Notes under the pieces: generated by a model
Told to the model about the DNA's origin: nothing
Seen by the model: only the letters and a program-made list of their open reading frames with translations
The model's database searches: none
Program-made: the position numbers and the translations under genes
Assembly: GCA_964493305.1 (NCBI GenBank)
Contig: CAZBLW010000001.1
Coordinates: forward strand, 17,743 to 81,742
Direction of reading: 5' to 3'
Length of the DNA stretch: 64,000 nucleotides
DNA from: an uncultured Gammaproteobacteria bacterium
GTDB taxonomy: Bacteria; Patescibacteriota; Patescibacteriia; S139-126
In this document: one piece after another, positions 4,256 to 60,934 of the stretch
How positions within the stretch are numbered: position 1 is the stretch's first letter
How the letters are laid out: the number at the start of each line of letters is the position of its first letter

Positions 4256-4259
4256 TTAT

Positions 4260-4834: not shown

Positions 4835-4838
4835 AGCT

Positions 4839-4979: not shown

Positions 4980-5169
4980 ATTTTTAATTAGTAAAATAAA
5001 TATATCAAGAAGTTATCATTAGGTCAAAAAAATAATTTTGTTTTTGTTTTTTCAGTTTTCACAATTTTTCAACATCTTATCACCTTTTTAAATTAATTGG
5101 ATGGTTTTTAAAAATAATCAGCAATGCTATAATGTGAAACGTTATTAGTAAAAAATAATTAAAACAAAT

Positions 5170-6540: not shown

Positions 6541-6775
6541 TTTATTTAAAAGCTGTTAATAAGTTACTGAAAGGTTTGTTATTTTCTTTTGATAATTTTT
6601 AGATAAAAGGTTAACAAAAAAATAAAAAAAATAAAAAAATTTCTTTTCAATATTTTATACACTTTTTTTACTAGGAGAAGCAAAAAATTTTTTTACTTAA
6701 GATTATATAAAATTTTTTATTTTCCACTGTTTCCACAACACCTATTATTATTGCTTTTAAAATTATTTATAATAT

Positions 6776-7879: not shown

Positions 7880-7880
7880 A

Positions 7881-13680: not shown

Positions 13681-13687
13681 AAAAAAA

Positions 13688-15121: not shown

Positions 15122-15684
15122 GTTATTATTTGATTTAAAATTTTTTTATTGGGTAAATTGGTGGTATTTATCTGCAAACAAGGTAGTTGACTCTTTTGTA
15201 AGAAAAAATCGTAATTTTTTTGTTGGACAATGTATTGTTTGGGCGTTTGTTTGATGCGATTATAGTGGGGGTATAATTGTAACCTTTCTTCTAAGCGGTG
15301 TTGAAAAAGCCCGACATCATTGTCAACAGATAAATAGATTATTTTAAAGTTTAATTTTTTTAAAATTTTTTCAACATTTTTATAATCCACTTTTTTATGT
15401 CGATATAACCAAGAGTACACTTGATCGCTGATGTGAAATTTTTCAAAAATTAGGTTGTCAGGCCTTAATTTTTTAGCCATATCAAGATAACTGTTGATTA
15501 GTGCTTTTCCTTTAGTTGATCCAAAAATGCCAATGTCAGCATTGATCCAGAAACAGCCATCCAATAAATATGGATATTTTTTGGAAGAATATTTTTTTTC
15601 TAAATAATTATAAACTTGGCTAATTACATAACTTTTACCGGTTAATTCAGCACCCTCAAAAATTAAATGGTATGGTTTAGTCAT
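15103..15684 (-). CDS. P-loop nucleoside/nucleotide kinase-like protein
   Basis: 193 aa with Walker A FEGAELTGKS. Overlaps neighbours on both sides and is operonic with the glycogen genes. Confidence 0.4.
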   Translation of the reverse strand: MTKPYHLIFEGAELTGKSYVISQVYNYLEKKYSSKKYPYLLDGCFWINADIGIFGSTKGKALINSYLDMAKKLRPDNLIFEKFHISDQVYSWLYRHKKVDYKNVEKILKKLNFKIIYLSVDNDVGLFQHRLEERLQLYPHYNRIKQTPKQYIVQQKNYDFFLQKSQLPCLQINTTNLPNKKILNQIITWLEKK

Positions 15685-18884: not shown

Positions 18885-18888
18885 TGTT

Positions 18889-42225: not shown

Positions 42226-42939
42226 ATGCTTTATATAATTTTGCCAACCTATAATGAAAAAGAAAATATCCAAGAATTGTTGACGGCTATTTTTTCTTTG
42301 TCCATTATTGATTTAAAAGTAGTTGTAATTGATGACAACTCACCGGATGGCACAGCTGCTGTCGTGAAACAAATGCAGTCTCAGTATAATCTTGAGTTGA
42401 TTGAGCGACCCGGTAAAATGGGCTTGGGTAGTGCTTATGTAACTGGTTTTCAAAAAGCTTTATCTTCGGGAGCTAGTTATATCATGGAAATGGATGCTGA
42501 TTTTTCTCACCTGCCAACTGATATACCAAAGTTGTTAGCAGCGGTTGAGAGTGGAGCTGATTTAGCAATTGGTTCCAGGCGGGTACCGGGTGGGCAAATT
42601 ATCGGTTGGAGTTGGTGGCGGTTGTTTATGAGTTGGGGCGCTATGAGTTTTTCTAGAGTTTTATTGGGACTAAAAACCAAAGATGTAACCGCTGGCTTTC
42701 GTTGTTACCGACGGGAAGTACTGCAACAGATTCCTTTGGCTAAAATCAAAAGCAATGGTTATTCTTTTCAAGAAGAAATGTTGTTTTTAGTAGAGAAGCT
42801 GGGCGCCAAAGTGGTTGAAGTGCCAGTGGTTTTCAATGATCGCCAAAAAGGTAAATCAAAACTAGCCAAAAAAGATATCTTAGATTTTTTTCTGATTGTA
42901 TTTAAATTAAAGTGGCAGCATGTTAAAAAATATCATTAA
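42226..42939 (+). CDS. GT2 polyprenol-phosphate glycosyltransferase (dolichol-phosphate mannosyltransferase-like)
   Basis: 237 aa with MLYIILPTYNEKENI, VVVIDDNSPDGT and a DxD-containing core. Confidence 0.8.
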   Translation: MLYIILPTYNEKENIQELLTAIFSLSIIDLKVVVIDDNSPDGTAAVVKQMQSQYNLELIERPGKMGLGSAYVTGFQKALSSGASYIMEMDADFSHLPTDIPKLLAAVESGADLAIGSRRVPGGQIIGWSWWRLFMSWGAMSFSRVLLGLKTKDVTAGFRCYRREVLQQIPLAKIKSNGYSFQEEMLFLVEKLGAKVVEVPVVFNDRQKGKSKLAKKDILDFFLIVFKLKWQHVKKYH

Positions 42940-44566
42940 AAATTGGACCAAACAGGAGTGGTGGGGACTGATAATTATTTCAGTGGTTTTATTGCTACTG
43001 ACCTGGTTACCCTATATTTATTTAGCCAGTCAGACACCTGAAGATTTTGTTTACAATTCTTCTACCTTTGTTAACCCTGGTGATAACACGGTTTATTTTT
43101 CTTATATCAGGCAAAGTGCAGAAGGTAAGTGGTTAATGGATAATATGTATACGACTGAATTGACGCAACCAGTCTTACATCCTTTTTGGACATTGCTGGG
43201 TAAGGTTGCTAATATTTTTTCCCTTACCCCGCCGACTATCTTTCATTTAGCTAGATCGGTGTTAATACCAATTTTTATTTTTTTCTCTTGCTTATTTATC
43301 AGTTATTTTTTATCCAACCGCGTGGCCAGGCAGGTGGCTTTGTGGTTTTTTAGTTTGGGGGCCGGTTGGGGATGGTTGTTTGTTTTAGCCAAACCGTTTT
43401 TTTGGTTTGATAATGCTTGGCACAATGTACCGTTTGATTTTTTTATTCCCGATGCTTTCCCGTTTACTAGTATGGTTATCTCACCCCATTTTATTTTGTC
43501 GTGGCTACTACTGCTTATTACTTTAAATTTTGGTTTTTTGGCCTTGCGTTACAATAGTTATTTTTATGCTGGTTGGTCAGGATTGATTGGGGCAGTATTG
43601 ATTTTATTGCATCCTTTTTATATACCGACCATATTTAGTATTTTAGGAATGTATTGGTTGGTTTTGTCACTCAGACAAAAAACTTTTTTGTGGTCGGGGA
43701 CTATAAAAATTTTCTTAATTGTTCTGGCTTTTTTACCCAGCGTGGGGTACTATTTTTATTTGTATTTTTTTGATCCAGTGACCAATATAAAAACTTTACA
43801 AAATTTTTTACCATCACCCAAACTACTCATTACCTTTTTGAGTTTTGGCATAACTTTTTTACTATCTTTGGTAGGTTATTGGTGGTGGCAACGACAGCAG
43901 AAAAATTCGCAAGACATAGAATTTTTGTTGATTTGGTCAGTACTTACCGCTGGTTTATTGTACACACCGTTTTTGTGGCAACGTCGTTTGGCTGAAGGTT
44001 GGTTTTTTCCCTTGGCCATTTTAGTTAGTTGGTTGTTGGTGGAGGTTGATAAAAAATTATATTTACGGATAAAAGATTTTTATCTTTGGCGGTGGTTTGT
44101 TTGGTTGCCATTGCTTTTAGTTTATCTCATGAGTAATTTGAATTTTTTGGGATTAAATTTTTTTTATATTCAAAAACAGAGCTATGCTTATTTTTATTAT
44201 CCGCAAAAGTTTACTTCACTAGCTAATTGGTTGGCACAAAATACCGATCAAGAGCAAACAATTTTTACCAATTATGATATGTGGTTTAGAACTGCCCCAG
44301 CCCTAGTTAGTCGTAAACAGTACTTAGGACATTTGGTCGAAACGGTTGATTCACATAAAAAATATTTGGAAATGAAATGGTTTTTTCAAAACGATCATCA
44401 AACTGAAAAAAAATACGAATTTTTGCAACAAACCGGAATTGATTATCTGGTGTATTATTCGCATGCACCGGAATTCAATATTTTTCAACCGCAGGAAAAA
44501 GATTTTTTGCAACCAGTTTTTACCGATGGTGATTTTAGTATTTATGAGGTTAAAAACAAATTATGA
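42920..44566 (+). CDS. large polytopic membrane protein, putative GT-C fold glycosyltransferase (paralog A)
   Basis: 548 aa with more than 10 TM helices. N- and C-terminal regions are clearly homologous to the next gene (…PGDNTVYFSYIRQ… / …DYLVYYSHAPEFNIFQPQEKDFLQPVF…). Confidence 0.45.
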   Translation: MLKNIIKNWTKQEWWGLIIISVVLLLLTWLPYIYLASQTPEDFVYNSSTFVNPGDNTVYFSYIRQSAEGKWLMDNMYTTELTQPVLHPFWTLLGKVANIFSLTPPTIFHLARSVLIPIFIFFSCLFISYFLSNRVARQVALWFFSLGAGWGWLFVLAKPFFWFDNAWHNVPFDFFIPDAFPFTSMVISPHFILSWLLLLITLNFGFLALRYNSYFYAGWSGLIGAVLILLHPFYIPTIFSILGMYWLVLSLRQKTFLWSGTIKIFLIVLAFLPSVGYYFYLYFFDPVTNIKTLQNFLPSPKLLITFLSFGITFLLSLVGYWWWQRQQKNSQDIEFLLIWSVLTAGLLYTPFLWQRRLAEGWFFPLAILVSWLLVEVDKKLYLRIKDFYLWRWFVWLPLLLVYLMSNLNFLGLNFFYIQKQSYAYFYYPQKFTSLANWLAQNTDQEQTIFTNYDMWFRTAPALVSRKQYLGHLVETVDSHKKYLEMKWFFQNDHQTEKKYEFLQQTGIDYLVYYSHAPEFNIFQPQEKDFLQPVFTDGDFSIYEVKNKL

Positions 44567-46236
44567 TTTTTAACCCATTTAAAAAAATAGCTCTTAATAA
44601 ATCTGAGTGGCATTTTATTTGGTGGTTAAGCGGAGTAGTTATAATTATTACCAGTGTACCCTATTTGTTGGGTTATTTTTTTACACCAGAGGGTAGTTTT
44701 TACAATGGTTTGCACGCACTTAGTCCTGGTGATATACCGGTTTATTATTCTTATTTGCGTCAGATTAAGTTGGGTAATTTTTTATTATACGATTTTTTTA
44801 CTTCTGAACCGCAGACCATGGGTACTTTAAATGTTTGGTGGTTGTTGGTGGGTTTATTGGCGAAATGGTTTAATTTATCGTTGCCGATAATTTTTCAACT
44901 CAGTAGAATTCTAATGATACCCGTACTGGTTATAACAGCCTATATTTTTTTTAGTTATTTTTTTATTAGTCAGCAGGTTAGACGTTTGGCAATAATATTT
45001 TTATCATTTTCGGCTGGTATTGGCGCTAGTCTAGCTCCTTTTTTACAAACTAGCAATCCTACCAGAGATGCTTTAGCCTGGCCAATAGATTTATGGATTA
45101 CTGAGGCCACGACCTTTACTGCCCTTTATCATTCATCACACATGATTGCTTCGTTGACCTTGATGTTAATAATCTTATTATTGATTTATTTAGGACTCAA
45201 TCAGTTGAAATTTATTTTCGCCATAGTTTGTGGATTGGTGTCATTGATATATTTTAATTTTCATCCTTATTATTTGCCAGTGATTTATGGAGTCTTGTTG
45301 CTTTATTTATTTTTTTTAACCCTAAAACAGAGAAAAATAATTTGGCAACAAGTAACCTGGTCACTGATTGTCATAGTAATATCGATTCCCTCAGCTTGGT
45401 ATCATATCTGGTTAATCGCTTCTGATCCAGTTATTTTCCTACGCGCAATGCAAAACGTTACCCCGCTATCTCCTTGGTTTTATGTGTTGGTAGGTTATGG
45501 TTGGCTGTGGGTGGGGTTGTTATTTAGTTTGTTAATTAGAATAAAAAAAAGGAAAATCACTCAACCTTATTTATTTATGATCAGTTGGTTATTGGTAAAT
45601 TTAACTCTTTTAATTTTGCCATTACCTTTTAGTAGTCGTTATACTCAAGGCCTGCAAGTAATTTTGGTATATTTTACTATCGACGCTTTAGTTTATGTTT
45701 ATCATTATGGTCAAGTAAATTTTAACGGTTGGTGGCAAAAATATATTCATAAAAATTTTGTCTTGCTTGGTATTTTATTTATTTTATTTTTTGCTATGAG
45801 TACCATTTTCCATTTAGTTAGAGATAGCTATTATTTTACCGCCCAACCAAATAACACAGCTAAAATATTTTATTTACCCAATGATTTAGAGAGAGCTTTC
45901 TATTGGCTTGATCAACAACCAGATGAGCAAATAGTGTTGGCAGCTGATATTCCAGCTAAATTTATACCCGGTTACGCTGGACAAATTGCTTATGTAGCCC
46001 ATAATCATGAAACCATTTTCTATTACCCTAAAGCTTTGTTTACTCGTTGGTTTTATGCTGACAATGATTTTAAAAATGACGAAAAAAAACACGCCTGGTT
46101 ACAGCGTGAAAAAATTGACTATATAATCTATTCTCCTTACGAGAAAGAGTTGGGTGATTTTCAACCCCAAGAAAAAGATTATTTACAACCCGTTTTTTCC
46201 AGTGGCGAGACAACTGTTTATCAAGTTTTACCTTAG
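44563..46236 (+). CDS. large polytopic membrane protein, putative GT-C fold glycosyltransferase (paralog B)
   Basis: 557 aa. Tandem paralog of 42920-44566 (…PGDIPVYYSYLRQ… / …DYIIYSPYEKELGDFQPQEKDYLQPVF…). Confidence 0.45.
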   Translation: MIFNPFKKIALNKSEWHFIWWLSGVVIIITSVPYLLGYFFTPEGSFYNGLHALSPGDIPVYYSYLRQIKLGNFLLYDFFTSEPQTMGTLNVWWLLVGLLAKWFNLSLPIIFQLSRILMIPVLVITAYIFFSYFFISQQVRRLAIIFLSFSAGIGASLAPFLQTSNPTRDALAWPIDLWITEATTFTALYHSSHMIASLTLMLIILLLIYLGLNQLKFIFAIVCGLVSLIYFNFHPYYLPVIYGVLLLYLFFLTLKQRKIIWQQVTWSLIVIVISIPSAWYHIWLIASDPVIFLRAMQNVTPLSPWFYVLVGYGWLWVGLLFSLLIRIKKRKITQPYLFMISWLLVNLTLLILPLPFSSRYTQGLQVILVYFTIDALVYVYHYGQVNFNGWWQKYIHKNFVLLGILFILFFAMSTIFHLVRDSYYFTAQPNNTAKIFYLPNDLERAFYWLDQQPDEQIVLAADIPAKFIPGYAGQIAYVAHNHETIFYYPKALFTRWFYADNDFKNDEKKHAWLQREKIDYIIYSPYEKELGDFQPQEKDYLQPVFSSGETTVYQVLP

Positions 46237-48053
46237 GGTAAGTTTACAATTTCACTAACCGGAGTGATTTTAAAATTGGCATCCGTGCCGCGCCAACTGT
46301 CAATTTCAATATAACCATCTAGCTCTACAATTTGCAGAGATATTTTTTGTTCGGGCATGATTGGCAGTAGGGAATTATAAGAGTATTTATTTTCCCAGGT
46401 GCTGGTAGGATAAAAATACAATAACGGCCTTATGTAACTTTGGTCCTGATTGTCAGTTATTTGTAAAAAATAATCTTTGGTGGTTGTAGTTTGCTTTTGC
46501 CAACTAAGTTCTAGTAGATTATTTTTCTTGTTTATATTTAGAGAAAAATCTCCTAGATTATATTTATCTCCAACTTGATCAGTATAGGCATAAACCGATT
46601 CAAAAATAGTTGCTTGGTCATTATTTTGCCAGACCATAATATCTTGGTTAAAATATTTCAATTCATAACCACTAAGTAATTTTCTGATATTTTGAAAACC
46701 AGCCGGGTAATACTGATGATAAGATTTTGAAGACGGAAACTGCAGGGCATAATATAACATGTCATCAGGATCCAGCACTATATAGTCAGGTTTAGTAAAG
46801 TCGTATTTTTTTGTTGAGAATTGTTGGTGATCGGTAAATATATAGTGCAAGGAAAAAATATTTTCTCGACTGGAAAGATTGGGTAAATATTTATAACCAG
46901 CAGCGATACTTGCTTGCGCTGGAATATTTTCTAAAATTTTTAATTGATAGTTTGGTTTGGTTATGTGTTTTATAATTCCCCACCCAGGTCCCAAAAAAAA
47001 CACTAAGTAAACCAAACTCACTGCCACTATCAATTTAGTCAAACCAATATCAAAATATAACCACTTGGCTAGTTTGGTTTTTCTGTTTTGGATATTTTGG
47101 ATTGCCCAAATCGAGCTGATGATCAGACTGGGTATAAATAGTGCTGAGTAATGAGTATCGATTATAATATTGCTCCCGCCGGGTTCACCTAAAATAAACT
47201 GTACTAGTGGCCCTAAAGCCAATACTAAATATCGGCTAGCCAGTAGGGGTAAAAATAAAAAGGCCAAAAGTAAGCCCAGTAACATTTCTACATTGCCCAA
47301 AGAAAAAAAGTGCAAGATAATCTGTCCCAAATTAGTATTGAGGAGCCATTCATAGTAGACGCTAAAGCGAGATCCGCCAGTATTGAAATAGGCGATTATT
47401 GCATTGCTAATTGTAAAATATATTAAACTGCTAAGCAGGGGCGTTAACCACCAGCGCCATGATTTTTTTTCTAGCCAGGCTAGGAGAAAAAATCCTCCCA
47501 CAGCCAAAGCCACATCTTCTCTGACTAGCAGGGCTAGTAATAGAAAAACAAAATAGTATTTAAAATTGTTTTTTAAATAAAAATAATATGCTAGTAGCAA
47601 AAGGGGAATAGCCAGGGGAAGCAGATGCCACTCGTGTAAATTTATGTTCCAAGTTAGGGGATTTATCAGCCAAGCTAAAGCCAAAATAACAGCCAGTTTT
47701 TTATTTAGAGTATTTTTGGCAATGAAATAAATTGGCACGGCGGCGCTGGCTAGAATAATACTCTGCCAAAACAGCAGATTGAGTGGTGATCTAAACAGCC
47801 AATAAAAAGGCAGTAGTAGATAAAGCAGAGGTTCAAAGTGATCAGCAAAGTAGTGATGTCCTTGGATACTGGACCAGAAGCCATTATCATTAACGGCATT
47901 GAAAAAAGCATTGTTATAAATTGCCAAATCCAGAGCATTGTAGCCCAGTTGCCAATATTTATACCAGCAAATGGTCGTCAGGGTTAACACATAAATTATC
48001 ATGCCAACAGGCAGGGTATATTTTTTGTCTAAAATTTGGCTAAGCTTATTCAT
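46233..48053 (-). CDS. polytopic membrane protein, DUF2079-like (putative polyprenol-dependent glycosyltransferase)
   Basis: 606 aa with GYNALDLAIYNNAF...GHHYFADHFEPLLYLLLP in the N-terminal region and about 12 TM helices. Confidence 0.4.
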   Translation of the reverse strand: MNKLSQILDKKYTLPVGMIIYVLTLTTICWYKYWQLGYNALDLAIYNNAFFNAVNDNGFWSSIQGHHYFADHFEPLLYLLLPFYWLFRSPLNLLFWQSIILASAAVPIYFIAKNTLNKKLAVILALAWLINPLTWNINLHEWHLLPLAIPLLLLAYYFYLKNNFKYYFVFLLLALLVREDVALAVGGFFLLAWLEKKSWRWWLTPLLSSLIYFTISNAIIAYFNTGGSRFSVYYEWLLNTNLGQIILHFFSLGNVEMLLGLLLAFLFLPLLASRYLVLALGPLVQFILGEPGGSNIIIDTHYSALFIPSLIISSIWAIQNIQNRKTKLAKWLYFDIGLTKLIVAVSLVYLVFFLGPGWGIIKHITKPNYQLKILENIPAQASIAAGYKYLPNLSSRENIFSLHYIFTDHQQFSTKKYDFTKPDYIVLDPDDMLYYALQFPSSKSYHQYYPAGFQNIRKLLSGYELKYFNQDIMVWQNNDQATIFESVYAYTDQVGDKYNLGDFSLNINKKNNLLELSWQKQTTTTKDYFLQITDNQDQSYIRPLLYFYPTSTWENKYSYNSLLPIMPEQKISLQIVELDGYIEIDSWRGTDANFKITPVSEIVNLP

Positions 48054-48169: not shown

Positions 48170-48559
48170 ATGAAAAATTTATTGATTTTGTTGGTTGCTT
48201 TAGTAGCTGTTAGTTTGTTGGTTGGCTGTGCTTCAACTGTTGAATATACAATTAAGACTTCAAATTCTGAAGTCAAAGGAAATCTCAAAGCTTTCAACAG
48301 CGAAGAAATTAATGCTACTACTAAACAGGTAGCTACTTTGATTACTATTAATGATTCTTCATTAACTGCCTCTGACCGGGCATTGCAACTTATGTATATT
48401 ACGACGATGAAGGACAGAGATGTCCAAATTATAGTTCCTTACGGAAATTATGGTGGTGGCTACTACGGTTACCAAGGCTCGCGGCAACAGACGAGAGATA
48501 TGGAAATCGATGCTATCAATCGGTATCAACAATACAAACAAAAGCAACTAAATAAATAA
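48170..48559 (+). CDS. lipoprotein, function unknown
   Basis: Signal peptide with lipobox LLVGC. 129 aa. Followed by the terminator 48575-48601 (AAAGCGGAAA/TTTCCGCTTT). Confidence 0.55.
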   Translation: MKNLLILLVALVAVSLLVGCASTVEYTIKTSNSEVKGNLKAFNSEEINATTKQVATLITINDSSLTASDRALQLMYITTMKDRDVQIIVPYGNYGGGYYGYQGSRQQTRDMEIDAINRYQQYKQKQLNK

Positions 48560-48617
48560 TTTTTCAAAATAAAAAAAGCGGAAAAAAATTTCCGCTTTTT
48601 AGTTTGTTTGAAAAAAA

Positions 48618-49037
48618 TTAGTAATACGGTTGATAAGTGGCCCACAGAATTGATCTAAAAATCCAAGTTGATAGCGCGTAAGCCAGTACCACAATCAATA
48701 GCCCAATAGTGGCTTGGGTCAAAATTTTTCTAGCTTTTTCTACTTGTTGATCATTACCGGCTGCAGTCATCCACAAAAAACCACCGTAGATAATAAGTAC
48801 CGTAAATAAAACTCCCAAAAATCCAAGCAGGGCATTGATAATCAATGCCACAACTTCGCGTACGTCAGTATCAGCATTGCCTAGTTCAGCTGCTACACCA
48901 GTATCAATAATACCTTGTTTGATTTTAGTACCAGCATTTTGTCCAGTGGTCGTGGCTAGCGCTGGTAAAGCAGCCGGGAATATCAACAATCCGAGAATAA
49001 AAGTAGTGATAATTATGGAAAAGATATTTTTTTTCAT
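48618..49037 (-). CDS. two-helix pilin-like membrane protein, paralog 1 (T4SS-pilin/VirB2-like topology)
   Basis: ORF trimmed to MKKNIFSIIITTFILG (signal-like). Conserved core LGFLGVLFTVLIIYGGFLWMTAAGNDQQVEKARKILTQATIGLLIVVLAYALSTWIF. Confidence 0.55.
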   Translation of the reverse strand: MKKNIFSIIITTFILGLLIFPAALPALATTTGQNAGTKIKQGIIDTGVAAELGNADTDVREVVALIINALLGFLGVLFTVLIIYGGFLWMTAAGNDQQVEKARKILTQATIGLLIVVLAYALSTWIFRSILWATYQPYY

Positions 49038-49041
49038 ATTT

Positions 49042-49425
49042 TTAAACTGAGCCGGTAGCTGAGAGTATAACATTGATAATAAATAATGATAAACCATAAG
49101 CCAAAATCACTATCAACAGTCCTACTGTGGAACTGGTTAAAATCTTCCTCGCCTTATCAATTTGTTGATCATTGCCAGCTGCGGTCATCCACAAAAAACC
49201 ACCGTAGATAATAAGGACCAAAAAAATCGTACCCACAAAACCCAGGGCATATTTGATAATATTACCGACTAAAAATGCCGGATCTTCAGCTTCAGCAAGT
49301 CTGGCTTTATCGTTGGTCGCTTGGGCAGTAGTTAAGGCATCTTGCAGTACGGAAGCTTTTACTAAGCTAGGCCAGGTAAATAGGAGGCCAACAAGTAAAT
49401 AAAATTTAATTTTTAGTTGATTCAT
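49042..49425 (-). CDS. two-helix pilin-like membrane protein, paralog 2
   Basis: ORF trimmed to MNQLKIKFYLLVGLLFTWPSLVKA, with GGGGGT upstream. Core FLVLIIYGGFLWMTAAGNDQQIDKARKILTSSTVGLLIVILAYGLS. A 40-nt stretch is nearly identical to paralog 1. Confidence 0.55.
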   Translation of the reverse strand: MNQLKIKFYLLVGLLFTWPSLVKASVLQDALTTAQATNDKARLAEAEDPAFLVGNIIKYALGFVGTIFLVLIIYGGFLWMTAAGNDQQIDKARKILTSSTVGLLIVILAYGLSLFIINVILSATGSV

Positions 49426-49427
49426 AA

Positions 49428-49757
49428 TTATACCCCCGAAGCAATTAAGGTTTTTAAAACAAATTGAGTGATAGCAAAAGCCAGGGCCACAATCAGTAAA
49501 CCAATAGTAGAAGAGCGGATAGTTTTTTGGGCTTTTTGAATTTTCTCCTCGTTGCCCGCTGCAGTCATCCAATTAAAACCAGCATAAATAATCAAAACCA
49601 AAAAAACTGTACCCAAAATTCCTAAAATAGAGTTAATAATTCCTCCCACTACATCTGGAAGTGATGGATTGGTAAGACCAGTAGCACGTTGAGCATCAGA
49701 TAGCTGTTGGTCCATCGAAGGGATTTGAGCGTAAGCTTGCTTAATAAATTTAAACAT
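49428..49757 (-). CDS. two-helix pilin-like membrane protein, paralog 3 (no N-terminal signal segment)
   Basis: Core GTVFLVLIIYAGFNWMTAAGNEEKIQKAQKTIRSSTIGLLIVALAFAITQF. Confidence 0.5.
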   Translation of the reverse strand: MFKFIKQAYAQIPSMDQQLSDAQRATGLTNPSLPDVVGGIINSILGILGTVFLVLIIYAGFNWMTAAGNEEKIQKAQKTIRSSTIGLLIVALAFAITQFVLKTLIASGV

Positions 49758-49760
49758 AAA

Positions 49761-50369
49761 TTAAATACAGATATAAAGACTACTACACAGTTCAGCACAA
49801 GTAGCGTTTGGTCGAAAAAGATCGCCATTGGTGCAGCTAGCACTAGTTTGTCCATTTAGACAAGTATATTCAGTAGTATTAACCGGATGTAGACAAGCGC
49901 CAGTGGTAGTTGTACCCCCACTGCCAGAAGAAGCCTTATTGTAAGATTGGATAAAAAAGTTTGTCAAAGCAAAAGATAAAAATACCAATATAAAACCAAC
50001 TACCGCACTAGCTAAAATTTTGGTAGCTTGTCTAACTTTTTCTTCATTGCCACCAGCAGTCATCCAAGTAAAACCGCCATAGATAAATAGTACCAGCATC
50101 ACCACCCCGATAATACTTAAAATCCCGTTGATAATCGTGCCAATTCTAGTACCCAAAGAAACGTCAGATTTTAAACTACCAGCCGCTTTATCAAGATTTG
50201 ATAGGGCATCAGCGCGGGCTAGTAAAGTATAATTTGTGTTTGTTTCAGCGGCCGATACCTCAGTCGCTAAGACAAACAATCCACCAATAAACACGGTGGC
50301 TATCAAAATGACAGCCACCGTGTTGTGGAATATAAGTTCTTTTATTTTATTTGAAAAATAAAAATTCAT
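49761..50369 (-). CDS. two-helix pilin-like membrane protein, paralog 4, with a Cys-rich C-terminal extension
   Basis: ORF trimmed to MNFYFSNKIKELIF... (TM/signal). Core VVMLVLFIYGGFTWMTAGGNEEKVRQATKILASAVVGFILVFLSFALT. Tail ...TGACLHPVNTTEYTCLNGQTSASCTNGDLFRPNATCAELCSSLYICI. Confidence 0.5.
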   Translation of the reverse strand: MNFYFSNKIKELIFHNTVAVILIATVFIGGLFVLATEVSAAETNTNYTLLARADALSNLDKAAGSLKSDVSLGTRIGTIINGILSIIGVVMLVLFIYGGFTWMTAGGNEEKVRQATKILASAVVGFILVFLSFALTNFFIQSYNKASSGSGGTTTTGACLHPVNTTEYTCLNGQTSASCTNGDLFRPNATCAELCSSLYICI

Positions 50370-50377
50370 TACAGTAA

Positions 50378-50731
50378 TTATGTAGTAGCACCAATGATTA
50401 CGCTGAAGATCCAAGTAGAAAGTGCGTAAGCGATGATAATAATTAATAAACCAATTACGCCAGCGCTGATAATTTTCTTAGCCTGTGCAACAGCTTCTTC
50501 GTTACCACCTGCGGTCATCCAACGGAAACCACCAGCAATGATAATCAAAGTCACTACGATACCCAAAATGCCTAAAACTACATTGATAATACGAGCGATG
50601 GTTTCTCGGACGTCTTGAGTGCCAAGACCGATTAAGCTACCATAGCCAGTACCAAATGGGTCACCAGCCATAGCGGCGACTGGAGCTAATAAAAGTGACA
50701 AAAGACCAAAAGCTAAAAGTTGTTTTTTCAT
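50378..50731 (-). CDS. two-helix pilin-like membrane protein, paralog 5
   Basis: Strong AAGGAGG RBS and signal peptide MKKQLLAFGLLSLLLAPVAAMA. Core GIVVTLIIIAGGFRWMTAGGNEEAVAQAKKIISAGVIGLLIIIIAYALSTWIF. Confidence 0.6.
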   Translation of the reverse strand: MKKQLLAFGLLSLLLAPVAAMAGDPFGTGYGSLIGLGTQDVRETIARIINVVLGILGIVVTLIIIAGGFRWMTAGGNEEAVAQAKKIISAGVIGLLIIIIAYALSTWIFSVIIGATT

Positions 50732-50829
50732 AATGTCACCTCCTTTCTAAAGTATAATTTTTAATTTTAATACCTCAATACCTTGAGGTATATATTTATT
50801 ATAATATATTTTTATGATTTTGTAAATAG

Positions 50830-51396
50830 CTAATTGGTTTTGGGCATACAACAACTTCTATCTAGCCCGCCCGTACACAAATTGGGAACAAAATCACAAT
50901 TGTTTGTATATTGATTTGGTTGAGTACAAGGAATAGGTTGACCTTGAGTATCAATACAGTTGACGCACTGGCCGCCGTTTTCAATACAACCTATTTCCGG
51001 ATTATTACTGGGTTCCAGTTGATAAACATTTTTTACGCCAATAAATTTTTGTAAGTTGACCACAACCACGTAGCTACCTAGTACAATTGCTAGTCCCACC
51101 ACAGTACCTACCATAATTTGTTTTCCTCTAGTAATTCTTTCTTGATTGCCACCGGAAGTAATAAACATCACCCCACCAATTACCAGTAATAGTAGCCCTA
51201 GTGCTCCCAGGTATTTAACTAAAAAAGTATAAAAGTTGGCAAACATTTGTACCAAATCCACCAGATCACATTTTTCTGCATTGCCTACTAAGCAATCAGA
51301 GGGAATAATAGCCGAAGTTTGAGCAAAAGCAACCAGTGGCAAAATGCCCAGTAATATTAGCACTAAAATCACAATTGACTTGGTTTTAATTGGCAT
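50830..51396 (-). CDS. two-helix pilin-like membrane protein, paralog 6, with a Cys-rich C-terminal extension
   Basis: Signal peptide MPIKTKSIVILVLILLGILPLVAFA. Core LGLLLLVIGGVMFITSGGNQERITRGKQIMVGTVVGLAIVLGSYVV. Tail with 10 Cys (…CIENGGQCVNCIDTQGQPIPCTQ…CDFVPNLCTGGLDRSCCMP). Confidence 0.55.
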   Translation of the reverse strand: MPIKTKSIVILVLILLGILPLVAFAQTSAIIPSDCLVGNAEKCDLVDLVQMFANFYTFLVKYLGALGLLLLVIGGVMFITSGGNQERITRGKQIMVGTVVGLAIVLGSYVVVVNLQKFIGVKNVYQLEPSNNPEIGCIENGGQCVNCIDTQGQPIPCTQPNQYTNNCDFVPNLCTGGLDRSCCMPKTN

Positions 51397-52792
51397 AAGT
51401 TGGTTTTATATAAGTTTGTTTAAGTTGTTCTACACTGTTGCGCAATAGTAAGTTTAGATTGGAGAAATTGCCTTGGTTGATAGCGGCAATTAGTTGTTTC
51501 AAGATTTCTTCAGCGGCGACTGAGTTGTAACCTCGATACCAACTATCAGCAGTTAAGGCTTGTTGAGTAAAGACTGAAGCGTTGGGTTCGGTTTGTTGTT
51601 TGGCAATCAATTCTTTCAAAGCCGGTGCTTTACCTGCTTTGGTTAAATAAGTTTCGTTTTGTTCTGGTTTGGTAGTAGCAAACAAAATAAAATCCCAAGC
51701 CGTGTCTTTAACTTGTTGTTCACCTCGAGGCGAAACTCCTAACATCCAGTAGTTAGCGAAGTTGAATTTTTTTGCCAAGGGATCAATTTGTGGTAGCGGA
51801 GCAATACCAAAATCTATTTTTGGACCCCGGGCTCTAATCAGCGGGGCGTGATAGGAGTAGCCAAACATCATAGCTGTGCGACCTTGGGCAAAAGCTTCCA
51901 AGGAGTTCGGGAAAGTTTGATTCCAAGTATAAACTTCTTTGATGGGGTTGGCAAAATCAGTATAAAAAATCAAAGCTTGTTGACCAGGGTTATAGTCTTG
52001 ACCGCCACCGGGGGGGATTTTGTCAAAAGCTGGTAAATTGTCAGAGCCAATCATTTGGGCGCCATTTTGCATCATCAAAACTGACAATAAATCAGTCCCG
52101 CGTTCTACATTGTCACCTCTGCCCATAGCTACTGCACTTCTGACGATATTGTTATTTTCATCCAATCTGGTTAGAGACAGAACTGCTTGTTTGAACTCAG
52201 CCCAAGTAGAAGGAGGAGTAGGGATATTAGCATCACTAAATAAGGTTTTATTGTAAAAAAGTGCCAAAGTATCAAGTCCCAAGGGTAGTCCGTAAATTTT
52301 ATTGTCCCTGATCGCATCATCTTTGACCACTTTGACAAATTTTTCATCCACTTGCGCTGGAGTCAAAGTAGGGAAATTTTTTAGTTCCCAAATCACTTCT
52401 TTTTTAAAACTGCCTTTCACAGTTTGCACTGGCAAAGCAATAGTAGCAGGTAGTGGTTCTAATTTTGTTTGGTAGGCAGTTATCCAGGTATTGTGGACCA
52501 TAAAAATATCAGGGCCGCGGTTTTCTGCCCAAGCTTCTAGCAGGGCTCGTTCGTATTCTTCAATCCTTAGTTTACGGTATTCAAAACTGACATTGGGTCG
52601 GGTTTTTTTGTATTCAGTAAAAATATCTTGCAATAAATCTTGTTCGTCCCAGACGCCCCAGATTTTTAAGGTAATAGGTACCGCTGCTTTTTGTGCTTCG
52701 GGATCACCACCTTTGCAGCCCACGCCCAGCAAGGGCAATGGCAACATGATAATCACTAGACCAATTAATTTTATTTTAGTCAGCTGTTTCAT
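51386..52792 (-). CDS. extracellular solute-binding lipoprotein (ABC-transporter SBP family 1-like), orphan
   Basis: 468 aa. Lipobox LLGVGCKG and an SBP_bac_1-like fold pattern. No adjacent permease or ATPase genes. It overlaps the first pilin-like gene by 11 nt. Confidence 0.55.
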   Translation of the reverse strand: MKQLTKIKLIGLVIIMLPLPLLGVGCKGGDPEAQKAAVPITLKIWGVWDEQDLLQDIFTEYKKTRPNVSFEYRKLRIEEYERALLEAWAENRGPDIFMVHNTWITAYQTKLEPLPATIALPVQTVKGSFKKEVIWELKNFPTLTPAQVDEKFVKVVKDDAIRDNKIYGLPLGLDTLALFYNKTLFSDANIPTPPSTWAEFKQAVLSLTRLDENNNIVRSAVAMGRGDNVERGTDLLSVLMMQNGAQMIGSDNLPAFDKIPPGGGQDYNPGQQALIFYTDFANPIKEVYTWNQTFPNSLEAFAQGRTAMMFGYSYHAPLIRARGPKIDFGIAPLPQIDPLAKKFNFANYWMLGVSPRGEQQVKDTAWDFILFATTKPEQNETYLTKAGKAPALKELIAKQQTEPNASVFTQQALTADSWYRGYNSVAAEEILKQLIAAINQGNFSNLNLLLRNSVEQLKQTYIKPTYAN

Positions 52793-52802
52793 AAAAATAA
52801 AT

Positions 52803-53687
52803 TTAAATTAATTTTTGCAAATATTTTTTTAACTCAGTTTTGGTTTCTTTGTCTTTAAGACCAAAAGCGATATTGGCTTTCAACCAAGTCAACTTGTTGC
52901 CGGTATCATAGTAGACCCCATCTACAATTTTGGAATAAATTGGGCGTTTTTTACCCAAAGCATCCACGGCATCAACCAACCAGAGTTCATTGCCTTTGCC
53001 CAGTTTAGTTTTTTCCAATATCGGGAAAATATCAGGCGTTAGTACATAGCCACCCAGATTGGCAATCAGCGAGGGGGTATTTTGGGGCCCTGGTTTTTCT
53101 ACTATTTTTTCTACTTGGTAAACAGTTGGTTCTACTTTTATGCCTTTGAGCATGCCGTATTTAGCCGCATCATTACGGGGGACTTGATAGCCAGTAGTTA
53201 CGGGGTCACCGTATTTTTGAAATACCTCAATCAGTTGTAACAGTCTGGGTTTTTTGGGGCAGTCAAATACTTCATCGCCCCAGAGCATGGCAAAAGGTTC
53301 GTTACCAACAATAGGTTTGGCATTTAAAATCGGGGTGCCGTTGCCATAGGGGCCTTTTTGTCGGATATAAATAAAATTGGCTTGGCGGGAAATATTTCTG
53401 ATTTTTTCGTATAAATCTTTTTTAGCAGGATTGTTTTTCAAGGTTTCTTCCAGTTCGGGGGAGCGATCAAAGTGATCTTCACAAGCCCGCTTGGTATAAG
53501 AGGTAACAAAGATAATATCAGTAATTCCCGAGGCGACTGCTTCTTCCACGACGTATTGCAAAATCGGTTTATCCAAAATTGGCAACATCTCTTTGGGGAT
53601 GGCTTTGGTGGCTGGTAAAAATCTAGTACCCAAGCCGGCTACTGGGATCACTACTTTTCTGATCGGATGAGTAAATTTTTTGGTCAT
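52803..53687 (-). CDS. galU: UTP--glucose-1-phosphate uridylyltransferase
   Basis: VIPVAGLGTRFLPATKAIPKEMLPILDKP N-terminal signature. Confidence 0.9.
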   Translation of the reverse strand: MTKKFTHPIRKVVIPVAGLGTRFLPATKAIPKEMLPILDKPILQYVVEEAVASGITDIIFVTSYTKRACEDHFDRSPELEETLKNNPAKKDLYEKIRNISRQANFIYIRQKGPYGNGTPILNAKPIVGNEPFAMLWGDEVFDCPKKPRLLQLIEVFQKYGDPVTTGYQVPRNDAAKYGMLKGIKVEPTVYQVEKIVEKPGPQNTPSLIANLGGYVLTPDIFPILEKTKLGKGNELWLVDAVDALGKKRPIYSKIVDGVYYDTGNKLTWLKANIAFGLKDKETKTELKKYLQKLI

Positions 53688-60184: not shown

Positions 60185-60934
60185 ATGCGAAAAAATATAT
60201 ATATCATAGTTGTTCTTTTGCTTCTCCTTCTTTTGGGGGTGATAGCTTTTTGGTGGTGGCAGCAAGCAAACAATAAAAAAGTTTCCGATTCAACCAGTCA
60301 AACTGATAGTCAAACAGTCCAAGTGGTTGAACCAGAAGAGTTTACCCCAACAGAAGATATTGTAGTGGATGATGCAACTGAAACAGGTGAGGTGGTGATA
60401 GTAGATGAACCAGTAAATAATGAACCAGTGGTAACAGACAACCAACCGCAACAGAACAATCAAGACAATCAAGCTCCCAACAATCAGCCCCCAGCTCAAG
60501 AACCGCCAAGCAATGTTTGCCAAACTGACACTGACTGCCAAACCAATTTTTATTGTGAATATGCCAAAGGCCAGTGTGGTGGTAGTGGTGAGTGTGTAGC
60601 CAAATCTGAGGCATGTACTTTGCAGTATGCTCCAGTGTGTGGTTGTGATGGTAAAACCTATGGCAATTCTTGTCAGGCTAGAGCCGCGGGAGTGAGTGTC
60701 GAGTATGACGGGCAGTGTCAAAATACTTGTCAGTCAAGTAATGATTGTGACGCCAATGAATATTGTGCCAAAGAAGTAGGACAGTGTAACCAAGTAGGTG
60801 AGTGTAAAACCAAACCCCAAACTTGTACGATTATTTATTCTCCAGTCTGCGGGTGTGATGGTGAAACTTATGGCAACAGTTGTCAAGCAACCCTGGCTGG
60901 TATGACTGTTTCCTCCGCCGGCGCTTGTCAGTAG
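60185..60934 (+). CDS. secreted/membrane-anchored protein with two Kazal-type protease-inhibitor-like domains
   Basis: N-terminal TM/signal, a Pro/Gln/Asn-rich linker, then two copies of C-x-Y-x-PVCGCDG-x-TYGNSCQA (the Kazal signature). Confidence 0.75.
   Translation: MRKNIYIIVVLLLLLLLGVIAFWWWQQANNKKVSDSTSQTDSQTVQVVEPEEFTPTEDIVVDDATETGEVVIVDEPVNNEPVVTDNQPQQNNQDNQAPNNQPPAQEPPSNVCQTDTDCQTNFYCEYAKGQCGGSGECVAKSEACTLQYAPVCGCDGKTYGNSCQARAAGVSVEYDGQCQNTCQSSNDCDANEYCAKEVGQCNQVGECKTKPQTCTIIYSPVCGCDGETYGNSCQATLAGMTVSSAGACQ

What the first reader, a model, noticed from the sequence alone, without database searches (positions are those of the whole stretch)
48618..52792. Tandem array of six paralogous two-helix pilin-like membrane proteins with hypervariable or Cys-rich exposed parts, headed by an orphan solute-binding lipoprotein
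Six consecutive minus-strand genes share a conserved C-terminal core of two hydrophobic helices around a short loop (…IIYGGFxWMTAAGNxxxxxKAxKxxxxxxxGLLIVxLAYxLS…). This is the topology of VirB2/TrbC or Gram-positive T4SS pilins. Their N-terminal or extra C-terminal parts are unrelated to each other, and two carry Cys-rich C-terminal domains with 6-10 Cys. Paralogs 1 and 2 share a ~40-nt near-identical stretch, pointing to recent gene conversion. No VirB4/VirD4/relaxase or type IV pilus assembly genes are nearby. The only co-oriented upstream gene is an SBP-type lipoprotein with no ABC partners. This may be a diversifying family of surface filaments or adhesins, or a novel membrane-anchor family. 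Such proteins could matter for cell-cell contact in an episymbiont-like organism.
Basis: partly seen in the sequence, partly recalled or inferred. Interest (0 to 1): 0.7.

Follow-up and report, generated by a model that had tools for sequence, protein, structure and literature searches.

The report
Patescibacterial VirB2-like pilin gene array

Summary
Six co-oriented minus-strand genes (48618-51396) share a two-helix hairpin core, and all six hit Pfam PF18895 "T4SS_pilin" (four above the curated cut-off). Tandem arrays of divergent VirB2-like pilins in Patescibacteria are already published: 441 arrays of 2-11 genes (Quinonero-Coronel 2025) and an essential array in S. epibionticum (Wang 2023). 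This is therefore a new member of a known kind, not a new membrane-anchor family.

The array is old rather than recently diversifying. Each gene has a positional ortholog in related genomes, and all pairwise dN/dS values are below 1. One gene, g5, is nearly invariant and is the only one with a canonical Shine-Dalgarno sequence and a promoter-like site. The two Cys-rich tails evolve fastest and match no known domain.

No T4SS machinery gene was seen in the 64-kb window, which contains dnaA. Of six related ABY1 genomes cross-checked, five are listed as VirB4-positive.

The "orphan" solute-binding protein is a conserved partner. In 79 of 80 species-level loci found through SBP orthologs, a pilin gene follows directly on the same strand. 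GalU, GT2 and polytopic membrane-protein genes often flank the locus. I found no report of this linkage. That these proteins form a pilus is inferred, not shown.

The parts
52803..53687 (-). GalU-like UTP-glucose-1-phosphate uridylyltransferase, first gene of the co-oriented cluster
   Evidence: Pfam NTP_transferase 8e-23. NCBIfam TIGR01099 galU 4.1e-89, 298.6 bits, slightly below the 326.8 cut-off. A homolog lies directly upstream of the SBP in 16 of 73 related loci with enough upstream sequence and in L005, L007, L089, L090 and L091. A promoter-like site is at 53738-53710.
51386..52792 (-). Sugar-type solute-binding lipoprotein (SBP_bac_1), conserved head of the pilin locus
   Evidence: Pfam SBP_bac_1 1.7e-24 and SBP_bac_8 8.1e-23. 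Nearest solved relatives are oligosaccharide/maltose-binding proteins, e.g. 4r9f at 8e-13. More than 2144 homologs were found; those carrying a source name are almost all labelled Patescibacteria. Twenty orthologs have 60% mean column identity and an invariant G23/C26. A pilin gene follows directly in 79 of 80 loci.
50830..51396 (-). g6: first-position pilin with a signal peptide, a conserved N-terminal Cys pair, the hairpin, and a 69-aa tail with 8 Cys. Its start overlaps the SBP stop by 11 nt
   Evidence: PF18895 3.7e-4, 21.0 bits. Found by the HMM built here. Its subfamily alignment A3 shows conserved C35/C43 and a variable Cys-rich tail. Its reciprocal best hits sit at position 1 in 23 of 24 arrays. 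AF2 gives hairpin helices 45-79 and 85-119 at pLDDT 70-84, and the tail below 50. The tail has no Pfam family and only 3 hits among 1.84 billion representatives.
50798..50826 (-). Promoter-like site (TTTACA-17-TATAAT) in the only sizeable intergenic gap of the array, followed by the SD AAGGAGGTGA in front of g5
   Evidence: 11 of 12 consensus match. Sequence read directly. g5 is the only one of the eight cluster genes with a canonical SD. These are consensus matches only, and function is not shown.
50378..50731 (-). g5: the most conserved pilin and candidate major subunit
   Evidence: PF18895 5e-10. Ortholog identity is 98/92/82%, against 90/83/66% for the SBP. Hairpin dN is 0.006-0.023 and dS is the lowest in the locus. 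A reciprocal best hit exists in 47 of 47 arrays. AF2 mean pLDDT is 77.9, with most of the hairpin (helices 41-73 and 78-116) above 90.
49761..50369 (-). g4: pilin with a long signal/anchor leader, an S/G/T-rich linker and a 54-aa tail with 6 Cys
   Evidence: PF18895 1.2e-10. Positional orthologs of 203-221 aa exist in relatives. The tail evolves fastest, with dN 0.97 against L089.
49428..49757 (-). g3: pilin lacking the hydrophobic core of the signal peptide that its orthologs have
   Evidence: PF18895 1.3e-09. NF045849 at 47.0 bits, above the 40-bit cut-off. The alignment with the L089 and L005 orthologs shows a ~20-aa gap in the leader.
49042..49425 (-). g2: pilin, closest paralog of g1 (55%)
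   Evidence: PF18895 4.2e-05, 24.0 bits. Its ortholog in L089 is 75% identical.
48618..49037 (-). g1: last pilin of the array
   Evidence: PF18895 1.4e-08. Its ortholog in L089 is 72% identical.
49184..49215 (-). 32-nt tract identical between g2 (here) and g1 (48766-48797), encoding LIIYGGFLWMT
   Evidence: Exact-match search gave 2 hits against 0 expected. The L089 orthologs share 50 nt at the same place. The hybrid gene in L002 crosses over inside this tract.
48573..48600 (.). Bidirectional terminator-like hairpin closing the array, shared with the convergent lipoprotein gene
   Evidence: 12-bp stem followed by T runs on both strands.
48170..48559 (+). Small convergent lipoprotein-like gene (129 aa), conserved in position between the array and DUF2079
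   Evidence: Hydrophobic leader followed by Cys. No family hit. Positional counterparts exist in L089 (67% identity), L005 (35%) and L092.
42226..48053 (.). Flanking envelope-glycosylation-type genes: GT2 (42226-42939 +), two paralogous 11-12-TM proteins of no known family (42920-44566 + and 44563-46236 +), and DUF2079 (46233-48053 -)
   Evidence: Pfam Glycos_transf_2 2.5e-30 and DUF2079 3.3e-49. The best NCBIfam matches of the GT2 are polyprenyl-phosphate sugar synthases (AglJ, PpgS, ArnC, PgfS), all below cut-off. The two polytopic proteins are paralogs (5e-66) with no Pfam, NCBIfam or PDB match. The same block flanks the array in L005, L007, L089, L092, L061, L062 and L077. Whether it belongs functionally to the pilin locus is inferred only.

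Best explanation
This is a chromosomal array of six VirB2-like pilin paralogs (Pfam PF18895) from a Patescibacteria (CPR) genome, most likely of the ABY1 type. It is one more example of the pilin arrays already described for the T4SS of this group, which is related to the conjugation machinery of single-membrane (monoderm) bacteria.

Proposed mechanism (inferred):
- Each protein is inserted into the cytoplasmic membrane, and five of the six lose a signal peptide.
- The two helices span the membrane. The short K/R-rich GGNEE..KA.K loop sits in the cytoplasm, and both ends are outside.
- A VirB4-driven T4SS encoded elsewhere in the genome extracts the subunits and polymerises them into a surface filament or channel extension.
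- g5 is the major, highly expressed subunit. It is nearly invariant and is the only gene with a canonical SD and its own promoter-like site.
- g6, g4, g3, g2 and g1 are minor subunits. Their variable N-terminal segments, and in g6 and g4 their disulfide-rich C-terminal knobs, are displayed on the surface for contact with the host cell.

The array is ancient and differentiated by position, not a recently diversifying cassette system.

The sugar-type SBP lipoprotein, whose stop overlaps the start of the first pilin gene (suggesting translational coupling), is a dedicated conserved partner rather than a stray ABC component. It most plausibly binds a host or envelope glycan at the contact site. 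Known analogies are PrgZ and ChvE, solute-binding proteins that feed partner or host signals to other T4SSs.
For: Shown:
- All six genes hit PF18895, and g3 passes NF045849.
- All 47 family members tested hit PF18895. Ten also hit TrbC/VirB2 PF04956, best E 1.5e-5.
- hhalign against an alignment of annotated VirB2/TrbC proteins aligns 56 columns in a sensible register (exposed segment, helix 1 ending G-x-x-W-M, loop, helix 2) at E 0.0011.
- AF2 gives a confident two-helix hairpin.
- PF18895 pilins SEML1_0014-0019 lie inside the essential T4SS cluster of S. epibionticum.
- 441 such arrays are published.
- Five of six related ABY1 genomes carrying the same SBP-pilin locus are VirB4-positive.
- Positional orthologs exist, and evolutionary rates differ by gene.
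- g5 has an SD and a promoter-like site.
- SBP-pilin adjacency holds in 79 of 80 loci, usually with a gap of -40 to +60 nt, and also in loci found through pilins rather than the SBP (one search shows the pilin-DUF2079-GT2 side of the locus).
- The SBP's solved relatives are oligosaccharide binders.

Inferred: the membrane topology, pilus assembly, the major/minor subunit roles and the SBP ligand.
Against: - No T4SS machinery gene lies in the 64-kb window.
- None was seen among the neighbour families scanned within 10 kb of the 80 related loci. The physical link to a T4SS therefore rests on family membership and on other lineages.
- Foldseek against the PDB gave only generic helical hairpins, none at E <= 0.001 and no VirB2/TraA in the top 50.
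- A profile search of PDB sequences found nothing.
- The hhalign probability is only 21%.
- tblastn of g3 against 72,556 plasmids found nothing.
- In the papers read here, the Patescibacterial T4SS pilus is described only as predicted or potential.
- g3 lacks a signal peptide.
Confidence: 0.6

Rival explanations
1. The locus is a module that works independently of the T4SS. The SBP, the first (g6-type) hairpin protein and the paralog array form a surface or envelope system of their own. For example, the hairpin proteins could be membrane anchors that display variable ectodomains next to a glycan-binding lipoprotein. They might be glycosylated by the flanking GalU, GT2 and GT-C-like genes, or might cooperate with them. 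The 'pilin' name would then reflect only distant ancestry.
For: - SBP-pilin adjacency is near-invariant (79 of 80 loci), while T4SS genes were never seen next to the locus.
- 14 of 56 loci with at least 8 kb of downstream sequence keep only the SBP plus one pilin.
- GalU, GT2, DUF2079 or GT-C-like genes occur in 42 of 80 loci, and the GT2 sits inside the array in 18 of 51.
- The best matches of the GT2 are polyprenyl-phosphate sugar synthases, including PgfS of a protein-glycosylation system.
- g4 has an S/G/T-rich linker.
- The structural evidence for a VirB2 fold is not specific.
Against: - In S. epibionticum the same Pfam family sits inside the T4SS cluster and is essential.
- Cross-hits to TrbC/VirB2 occur in 10 of 47 members.
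- The glycosylation genes are present in only about half of the loci.
- VirB4 is present in most related genomes.
Confidence: 0.22
2. The array is a variation system. Paralogs exchange segments by gene conversion or unequal recombination across the conserved core, producing new surface variants or copy-number changes to follow changing hosts. The comparison would be antigenic variation of VirB2 paralogs in Anaplasma or Bartonella.
For: - g1 and g2 share a 32-nt exact tract, and the L089 orthologs share 50 nt, with identical synonymous sites despite 55% protein identity.
- A 99.7%-identical strain contig (L002) carries one g2/g1 hybrid gene whose crossover lies exactly in that tract.
- The exposed parts evolve much faster than the core.
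- The published interpretation of such arrays is adaptation to hosts.
Against: - All six genes have one-to-one positional orthologs at 83% and 68% SBP identity. g5-type and g6-type genes are traceable across 47 and 23 arrays.
- No dN/dS value exceeds 1, although dS is saturated.
- The hybrid in L002 may be an artefact of a k=31 assembly. The shared tract is 32 nt, and a second contig (L001/L004) ends inside the same repeat.
Confidence: 0.12
3. The SBP is an ordinary ABC-importer binding protein whose permease and ATPase are encoded elsewhere. Its position next to the pilins would be a conserved but functionally meaningless gene order.
For: It has typical SBP_bac_1/SBP_bac_8 domains, and its nearest solved relatives are ABC sugar-binding proteins. 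Reduced genomes often scatter operons.
Against: - Adjacency holds in 79 of 80 species-level loci spanning Falkow-, Uhr-, Kuenen- and Komeilibacteria at only 42-59% SBP identity, while the rest of the neighbourhood changes completely.
- The stop and start codons overlap or nearly abut.
- No ABC permease family was seen in the window, or among the neighbour families scanned in the related loci; two large neighbour ORFs there do hit ABC_tran, an ATPase domain.
Confidence: 0.06

Closest known systems
VirB2-like pilin arrays of Patescibacteria (S. epibionticum SEML1_0014-0019, Wang et al. 2023 Cell, PMC10633639; 441 arrays in 383 assemblies, Quinonero-Coronel et al. 2025 Microb Genom, PMC12102498)
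   Same: Same Pfam family (PF18895). Same tandem layout of 2-11 co-oriented small genes. The level of divergence is similar: published mean 25% and maximum 54%, against 26-55% here. The lineage is also monoderm and CPR.
   Different: In S. epibionticum the array lies inside the T4SS gene cluster. Here it is at least 11 kb (3' side of the window) and 48 kb (5' side) away from any T4SS gene, and it is headed by a sugar-type SBP. The SBP, GalU, GT2 and DUF2079 neighbours and the Cys-rich tails are not mentioned in that paper or in the parts of its supplements held as text.
VirB2/TrbC conjugative pilins of Gram-negative T4SS (Pfam PF04956; A. tumefaciens VirB2)
   Same: Small protein with a leader and two hydrophobic helices around a short loop. 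A shared G-x-x-W-M motif ends helix 1. Ten of 47 family members cross-hit PF04956, and hhalign gives E 0.0011 over 56 columns.
   Different: No significant sequence or fold match to solved pilins. The hhalign probability is 21%. There is no virB operon context. The C-terminal Cys-rich extensions are absent from the VirB2/TrbC sequences aligned here. VirB2 cyclisation cannot be assessed.
Mbov_0395 / MMCAP2_0565 pilin-like conjugal transfer proteins of Mollicutes ICEs (NCBIfam NF045849)
   Same: g3 scores 47.0 bits against a cut-off of 40. The other paralogs, except g6, score 26-37 bits over the whole 80-position model. This fits the published descent of the Patescibacteria T4SS from the MPF_FATA class of monoderms.
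   Different: Those proteins are single genes inside mobile elements with a full conjugation set. Here there are six chromosomal paralogs in a housekeeping context with no mobile-element genes.
Tandem VirB2 paralogs of Bartonella and Anaplasma phagocytophilum (cited in PMC12102498)
   Same: Several divergent VirB2-type genes in a row, in a host-dependent bacterium. Surface variation is the proposed role.
   Different: Those organisms are diderm Alphaproteobacteria with classic VirB systems. I made no sequence comparison with them, so this is a functional analogy only.
Solute-binding proteins that serve a T4SS as sensors: PrgZ of pCF10 (pheromone-binding lipoprotein) and ChvE of Agrobacterium (sugar-binding, potentiates VirA). 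Recalled from my own knowledge.
   Same: A solute-binding protein is genetically or functionally tied to a T4SS and reports a partner-derived or host-derived ligand.
   Different: PrgZ belongs to the peptide SBP family, and both proteins have known membrane partners (the Opp permease, and VirA plus an ABC system). No partner is known here. This is an analogy and was not tested.

Membership tests
Pfam PF18895 T4SS_pilin | Score at or above the curated gathering threshold (26.6 bits) against the family HMM | tested here: met
   g1 35.1, g3 38.4, g4 41.7 and g5 39.7 bits are above the threshold. g2 at 24.0 (E 4.2e-5) and g6 at 21.0 (E 3.7e-4) are just below, but some g6-subfamily homologs carry a precomputed PF18895 hit. 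All 47 aligned relatives hit it.
Pfam PF18895 T4SS_pilin | Two-helix hydrophobic hairpin of about 70 residues | tested here: met
   AF2 of g5 gives helices 41-73 and 78-116, most of the hairpin at pLDDT above 90. AF2 of g6 gives helices 45-79 and 85-119. Hydropathy peaks agree.
Published Patescibacteria VirB2-like pilin arrays | At least 2 pilin genes in tandem (or separated by one gene), with low identity between paralogs | tested here: met
   Six genes in tandem, 26-55% identical.
Published Patescibacteria VirB2-like pilin arrays | Patescibacteria genome that also encodes VirB4 | not testable with these tools
   Only 64 kb of the genome is available, and no VirB4 is in it. Indirect evidence: 5 of 6 related ABY1 genomes with the same locus are VirB4-positive, and 2,417 of 3,035 Patescibacteria assemblies have VirB4.
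VirB2/TrbC pilins (PF04956) | Significant sequence or profile similarity to bona fide VirB2/TrbC | tested here: inconclusive
   None of the six window proteins hit PF04956 at E <= 0.1. g2 hits NCBIfam VirB2 at E 0.04. Ten of 47 relatives hit PF04956, best 1.5e-5. hhalign against 8 annotated VirB2/TrbC proteins gives probability 20.9% and E 0.0011.
VirB2/TrbC pilins (PF04956) | Fold match to solved conjugative pilins | tested here: inconclusive
   Foldseek against the PDB gave no hit at E <= 0.001. The top hits are generic hairpins such as ATP synthase subunit c. A simple hairpin is not discriminating.
VirB2/TrbC pilins (PF04956) | Encoded with VirB3, VirB4, VirB6 and the other mating-pair-formation genes | tested here: not met
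   No such gene lies in the window, and none was seen among the neighbour families scanned within 10 kb of 80 related loci.
VirB2/TrbC pilins (PF04956) | Assembles into an extracellular pilus | not testable with these tools
   This needs microscopy or biochemistry.
ABC-transporter solute-binding protein, family 1 (PF01547/PF13416) | SBP domain above the Pfam threshold | tested here: met
   87.8 and 82.0 bits against cut-offs of 26 and 27. PDB relatives are sugar-binding proteins.
ABC-transporter solute-binding protein, family 1 (PF01547/PF13416) | Encoded with cognate permease and ATPase genes | tested here: not met
   None is in the window and none is adjacent in any of the 80+ related loci. 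The conserved downstream neighbour is a pilin gene.
Polyprenyl-phosphate-sugar dependent extracytoplasmic glycosylation (GtrB/PgfS-type GT2 plus a GT-C enzyme) | GT2 polyprenyl-phosphate sugar synthase plus a GT-C fold transferase in one locus | tested here: inconclusive
   The best NCBIfam matches of the GT2 are AglJ, PpgS, ArnC and PgfS, all far below their cut-offs. DUF2079 is present; its placement in the GT-C clan is from my memory. The two other polytopic proteins match nothing. The target of any glycosylation is unknown.

The most novel reading that the evidence does not exclude
In ABY1-type Patescibacteria, the sugar-binding lipoprotein and the first, Cys-rich pilin-like protein form a conserved two-gene unit, usually extended by a differentiated array of paralogs. 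This unit would couple recognition of a host or envelope glycan to the assembly or function of the VirB2-like filament, possibly with glycosylation by the flanking GalU, GT2 and GT-C-like genes. That would make a solute-binding protein a previously unrecognised dedicated component of this pilin system. At the extreme, the locus would be a surface system that works without the T4SS.
Probability: 0.25. Interest if true: 0.6.

Novelty: new member of a known kind. Interest (0 to 1): 0.35.

Why it matters
The T4SS and its pilin array are essential for epibiotic growth in the one Patescibacterium where they have been tested genetically, but what the pilins do is unknown. This locus adds nothing categorically new about the arrays themselves. 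The comparative work around it does give three testable leads.

1. Within an array the paralogs are old, ordered by position and unequal. There is one near-invariant subunit that looks highly expressed, plus faster-evolving ones. This argues for a heteromeric structure rather than simple antigenic variation.

2. A sugar-type SBP lipoprotein is an almost obligatory partner of the first pilin gene across a whole class. This points to glycan recognition at the host interface.

3. A minority of pilins carry lineage-specific disulfide-rich C-terminal knobs that would decorate the filament.

All three could guide experiments on host attachment in uncultured CPR lineages.

Tried and rejected
- Fold search of the confident g5 hairpin model against the PDB returned only generic helical hairpins, so it says nothing for or against VirB2.
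- The AF2 model of g6 left the Cys-rich tail below pLDDT 50, so no fold could be assigned.
- A profile search of PDB sequences with the family alignment gave no meaningful hit.
- tblastn of g3 against 72,556 plasmids found nothing, so no conjugative-plasmid homolog could serve as a context control.
- Searches for the Cys-rich tails found nothing useful: 3 hits among 1.84 billion representatives and no Pfam family.
- The two 11-12-TM proteins and DUF2079 have no solved relatives by sequence.
- Rfam found only the neighbouring tRNA-Ser.
- Pairwise dN/dS is of limited value because dS is saturated (above 1) in most comparisons.
- I considered and rejected recent tandem duplication, because positional orthologs exist.
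- I considered and rejected a TRAP/DctQ-like transporter reading. The weak DctQ hits are compositional matches between transmembrane segments.
- I could not reach the rest of the source genome.

Full report
**Observation**

The region holds six co-oriented minus-strand genes directly downstream of an SBP gene. I name them by position after the SBP. The most probable starts come from signal peptides, tight gene packing and gene calls on identical public contigs:
- g6: 50830-51396
- g5: 50378-50731
- g4: 49761-50369
- g3: 49428-49757
- g2: 49042-49425
- g1: 48618-49037

All six align over a roughly 75-residue core of two hydrophobic helices around a short GGNEE..KA.K loop. Paralog identity is 26-55%. 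The N-terminal parts are unrelated to each other. g4 carries a 54-aa tail with 6 Cys. g6 carries a 69-aa tail with 8 Cys, plus a conserved Cys pair before the first helix. g1 and g2 share a 32-nt exact tract at 48766-48797 and 49184-49215.

**What the proteins are**

[quoted passage not shown] Four are above the gathering score. g3 also passes NCBIfam NF045849, the pilin-like conjugal transfer protein of Mollicutes ICEs.

AlphaFold2 with a 47-sequence alignment gives a helix-loop-helix for g5, with most of the hairpin at pLDDT above 90.

The link to classical VirB2/TrbC is weak but consistent:
- Ten of 47 relatives also hit PF04956, best E 1.5e-5.
- hhalign against eight annotated VirB2/TrbC proteins from MPF_T plasmids aligns 56 columns in a sensible register at E 0.0011, but with only 21% probability.
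- Foldseek against the PDB returned only generic hairpins, and a PDB sequence-profile search returned nothing.

Membership of PF18895 is therefore established. Membership of the VirB2/TrbC family proper is inconclusive.

**Prior knowledge**

Tandem arrays of this family in Patescibacteria are published. Quinonero-Coronel et al. 2025 (PMC12102498) report 441 arrays of 2-11 VirB2-like genes in 383 assemblies. Mean paralog identity is 25% and the maximum is 54%. The pilin gene lies near virB4 in 1135 of 1948 assemblies.

Wang et al. 2023 (PMC10633639) found a series of predicted pilins inside the essential T4SS cluster of S. epibionticum. Their supplement annotates SEML1_0014-0016 as PF18895. A 2025 review repeats this. 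The array here is a further example, not a new family.

**Genomic setting**

The window is chromosomal, housekeeping and close to the replication origin. It contains dnaA, dnaN, rnpA and yidC, as well as PBP1, ValRS, H+-PPase and glycogen genes. The dnaA-dnaN-yidC block most probably corresponds to the ORFs at about 3.5-7.9 kb; that assignment is inferred, because one search does not say which ORF hit which family. I saw no T4SS ATPase, VirB6-like protein, relaxase or type IV pilus family, and no ABC permease or ATPase.

I could not reach the rest of the genome. Six genomes from my set of related loci appear in the published Table S1. All six are class ABY1, and five are VirB4-positive. A T4SS elsewhere in this genome is therefore likely but not shown.

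**The SBP is a conserved partner**

The SBP is a sugar-type family-1 binding protein. Its nearest solved relatives are oligosaccharide and maltose binders. It has a leader and an invariant Cys, so it is probably a lipoprotein. Its stop overlaps the g6 start by 11 nt.

It has more than 2144 homologs, and those carrying a source name are almost all labelled Patescibacteria. I scanned one genome per species with an alignment of 20 orthologs. This returned 80 loci from Falkow-, Uhr-, Kuenen- and Komeilibacteria and unnamed Patescibacteria, with 42-59% SBP identity.

Using an HMM built from the six paralogs and iterated once:
- 79 of 80 loci have a pilin gene directly downstream on the same strand, usually with a gap of -40 to +60 nt.
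- The single exception is a contig cut 328 nt after the SBP.
- Of the 56 loci with at least 8 kb of downstream sequence, 42 have arrays of 5-15 pilins and 14 have only the one pilin.

Loci found through pilin homologs rather than through the SBP show the same layout; one truncated pilin-found locus shows the pilin-DUF2079-GT2 side only.

The rest of the neighbourhood changes completely between lineages. In Falkowbacteria-type loci it includes SMC, ComM, a RodZ-like protein, a methyltransferase and RecA. I saw no T4SS family there.

I found no mention of this SBP linkage in the main text or held supplements of the 2025 paper, nor in full-text searches.

**Flanking glycosylation-type genes**

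The following genes flank the array here and in several relatives:
- A GalU-like gene.
- A GT2 whose best matches are polyprenyl-phosphate sugar synthases.
- DUF2079.
- Two paralogous 11-12-TM proteins of no known family.

At least one such gene lies within 10 kb in 42 of 80 loci, and the GT2 sits inside the array in 18 of 51. This suggests a link to extracytoplasmic glycosylation, but it is far from universal and no target is known.

**Evolution of the array**

The six genes have one-to-one positional orthologs in genomes whose SBP is 90%, 83% and 68% identical. Rates differ sharply between genes:

| Gene | Identity to ortholog in L090 / L089 / L005 |
|---|---|
| SBP | 90 / 83 / 66% |
| g5 | 98 / 92 / 82% |
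| g6 | 65 / 57 / 45% |
| g4 | 78 / 58 / 41% |

Further observations:
- Across 47 arrays of at least 5 genes, g5 always has a reciprocal best hit, at position 2-4. g6-type genes sit at position 1 in 23 of 24 cases.
- All pairwise dN/dS values are below 1, but dS is mostly saturated.
- The hairpins are conserved and the Cys-rich tails evolve fastest.
- g5 has the lowest dS in the locus.
- g5 is the only cluster gene with a canonical SD (AAGGAGGTGA). A TTTACA-17-TATAAT site precedes it in the only real intergenic gap.
- A bidirectional terminator-like hairpin closes the array.

I read g5 as the major subunit and the others as differentiated minor subunits. This is an inference.

**Gene conversion**

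The 32-nt tract shared by g1 and g2 has identical synonymous sites. The L089 orthologs share 50 nt at the same place. This fits recurrent local conversion or a constraint at the nucleotide level. It does not show a recent event.

A 99.7%-identical contig (L002) carries a single g2/g1 hybrid whose crossover lies exactly in this tract. This could be real unequal recombination. It could also be an artefact, since Logan contigs are, to my knowledge, assembled with k=31, the tract is 32 nt, and another contig ends inside the same repeat.

**Cys-rich tails**

C-terminal extensions with at least 4 Cys occur in 18% of first-position pilins and 5% of the others. The g6 tail has no Pfam family and only three hits among 1.84 billion representatives. 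AF2 could not model it. These are lineage-specific modules, presumably disulfide-bonded and extracellular.

**Verdict**

This is a real, well-described feature that belongs to a known kind. The suggestions of novelty and of recent diversification were not.

The most useful new point is the near-invariant pairing of the SBP with the first pilin gene, together with the positional differentiation within the array. I rate the T4SS-pilin explanation at about 0.6. The main rival, at about 0.2, is a surface module centred on the SBP that works without the T4SS.

Noticed in passing
window 51386-52792 with 50830-51396; loci L009-L088: The sugar-type SBP lipoprotein and the first pilin gene form a near-invariant pair: 79 of 80 species-level loci, with overlapping or nearly abutting stop and start codons. 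14 of the 56 loci with at least 8 kb of downstream sequence keep only this pair, without the array. I found no report of this.
   Followed up: yes
window 42226-48053 and 52803-53687: The pilin locus is flanked by GalU, a GT2 of the polyprenyl-phosphate sugar synthase type, DUF2079 and two paralogous 11-12-TM proteins that match no Pfam, NCBIfam or PDB entry. The same block recurs in L005, L007, L089, L092, L061, L062 and L077. This may be an extracytoplasmic glycosylation pathway with an unknown target.
   Followed up: partly
L002 5643-6032 versus window 48618-49425: A 99.7%-identical contig from another sample carries one 129-aa hybrid gene (g2 head, g1 tail) in place of g2 plus g1. The crossover lies inside the 32-nt identical tract. 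This is either real copy-number variation or a k=31 assembly collapse. Contig L001/L004 ends inside the same repeat.
   Followed up: partly
window 49428-49757 (g3): g3, and its ortholog in L090, lacks about 20 residues of the hydrophobic signal-peptide core that the L089 and L005 orthologs have. The rest of the protein stays conserved. How it inserts into the membrane is unclear.
   Followed up: partly
window 60185-60934 (+): A 249-aa protein with an N-terminal membrane anchor and two Kazal-type serine protease inhibitor domains (Kazal_1 2.3e-11, above the cut-off). To my knowledge Kazal domains are uncommon in bacteria.
   Followed up: no
window 48170-48559 (+): A small convergent lipoprotein-like gene with no family sits between the array and DUF2079. 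Its position is conserved (67% identity in L089, 35% in L005, and a counterpart in L092). It shares a bidirectional terminator hairpin with g1.
   Followed up: partly
window about 3500-7900: dnaA, dnaN, rnpA and yidC families are present in the window, most probably at these coordinates, so the window spans the replication origin region. On that assignment the pilin array lies about 43 kb from dnaA. The published association of virB4 with dnaA in some classes is not seen on this side of the origin.
   Followed up: no
window 12745-20376 (-): A glycogen-type cluster with two starch-synthase paralogs, a GH57 enzyme and a GalT-like gene. A 684-aa APH/RIO-type kinase-fold protein is embedded among them.
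   Followed up: no
L071, L056, L070, L088, L016: Extreme relatives of the locus. L071 has an array of 15 pilin genes. Other loci have pilins of 330-460 aa with large additional N- or C-terminal domains and up to 20 Cys.
   Followed up: no
P0183 (1724 aa): A giant protein has four stretches weakly similar (E 5.6e-4) to the Cys-rich tail of g6. The motif may recur as a repeat in other secreted proteins.
   Followed up: no
S. epibionticum SEML1_0634 (supplement of PMC10633639): A family-5 peptide SBP gene flanked by tRNA genes and secG, with no ABC transporter gene among its immediate listed neighbours, is scored essential in the Tn-seq table. This may parallel the idea that Patescibacteria use stand-alone SBPs at the host interface.
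   Followed up: no
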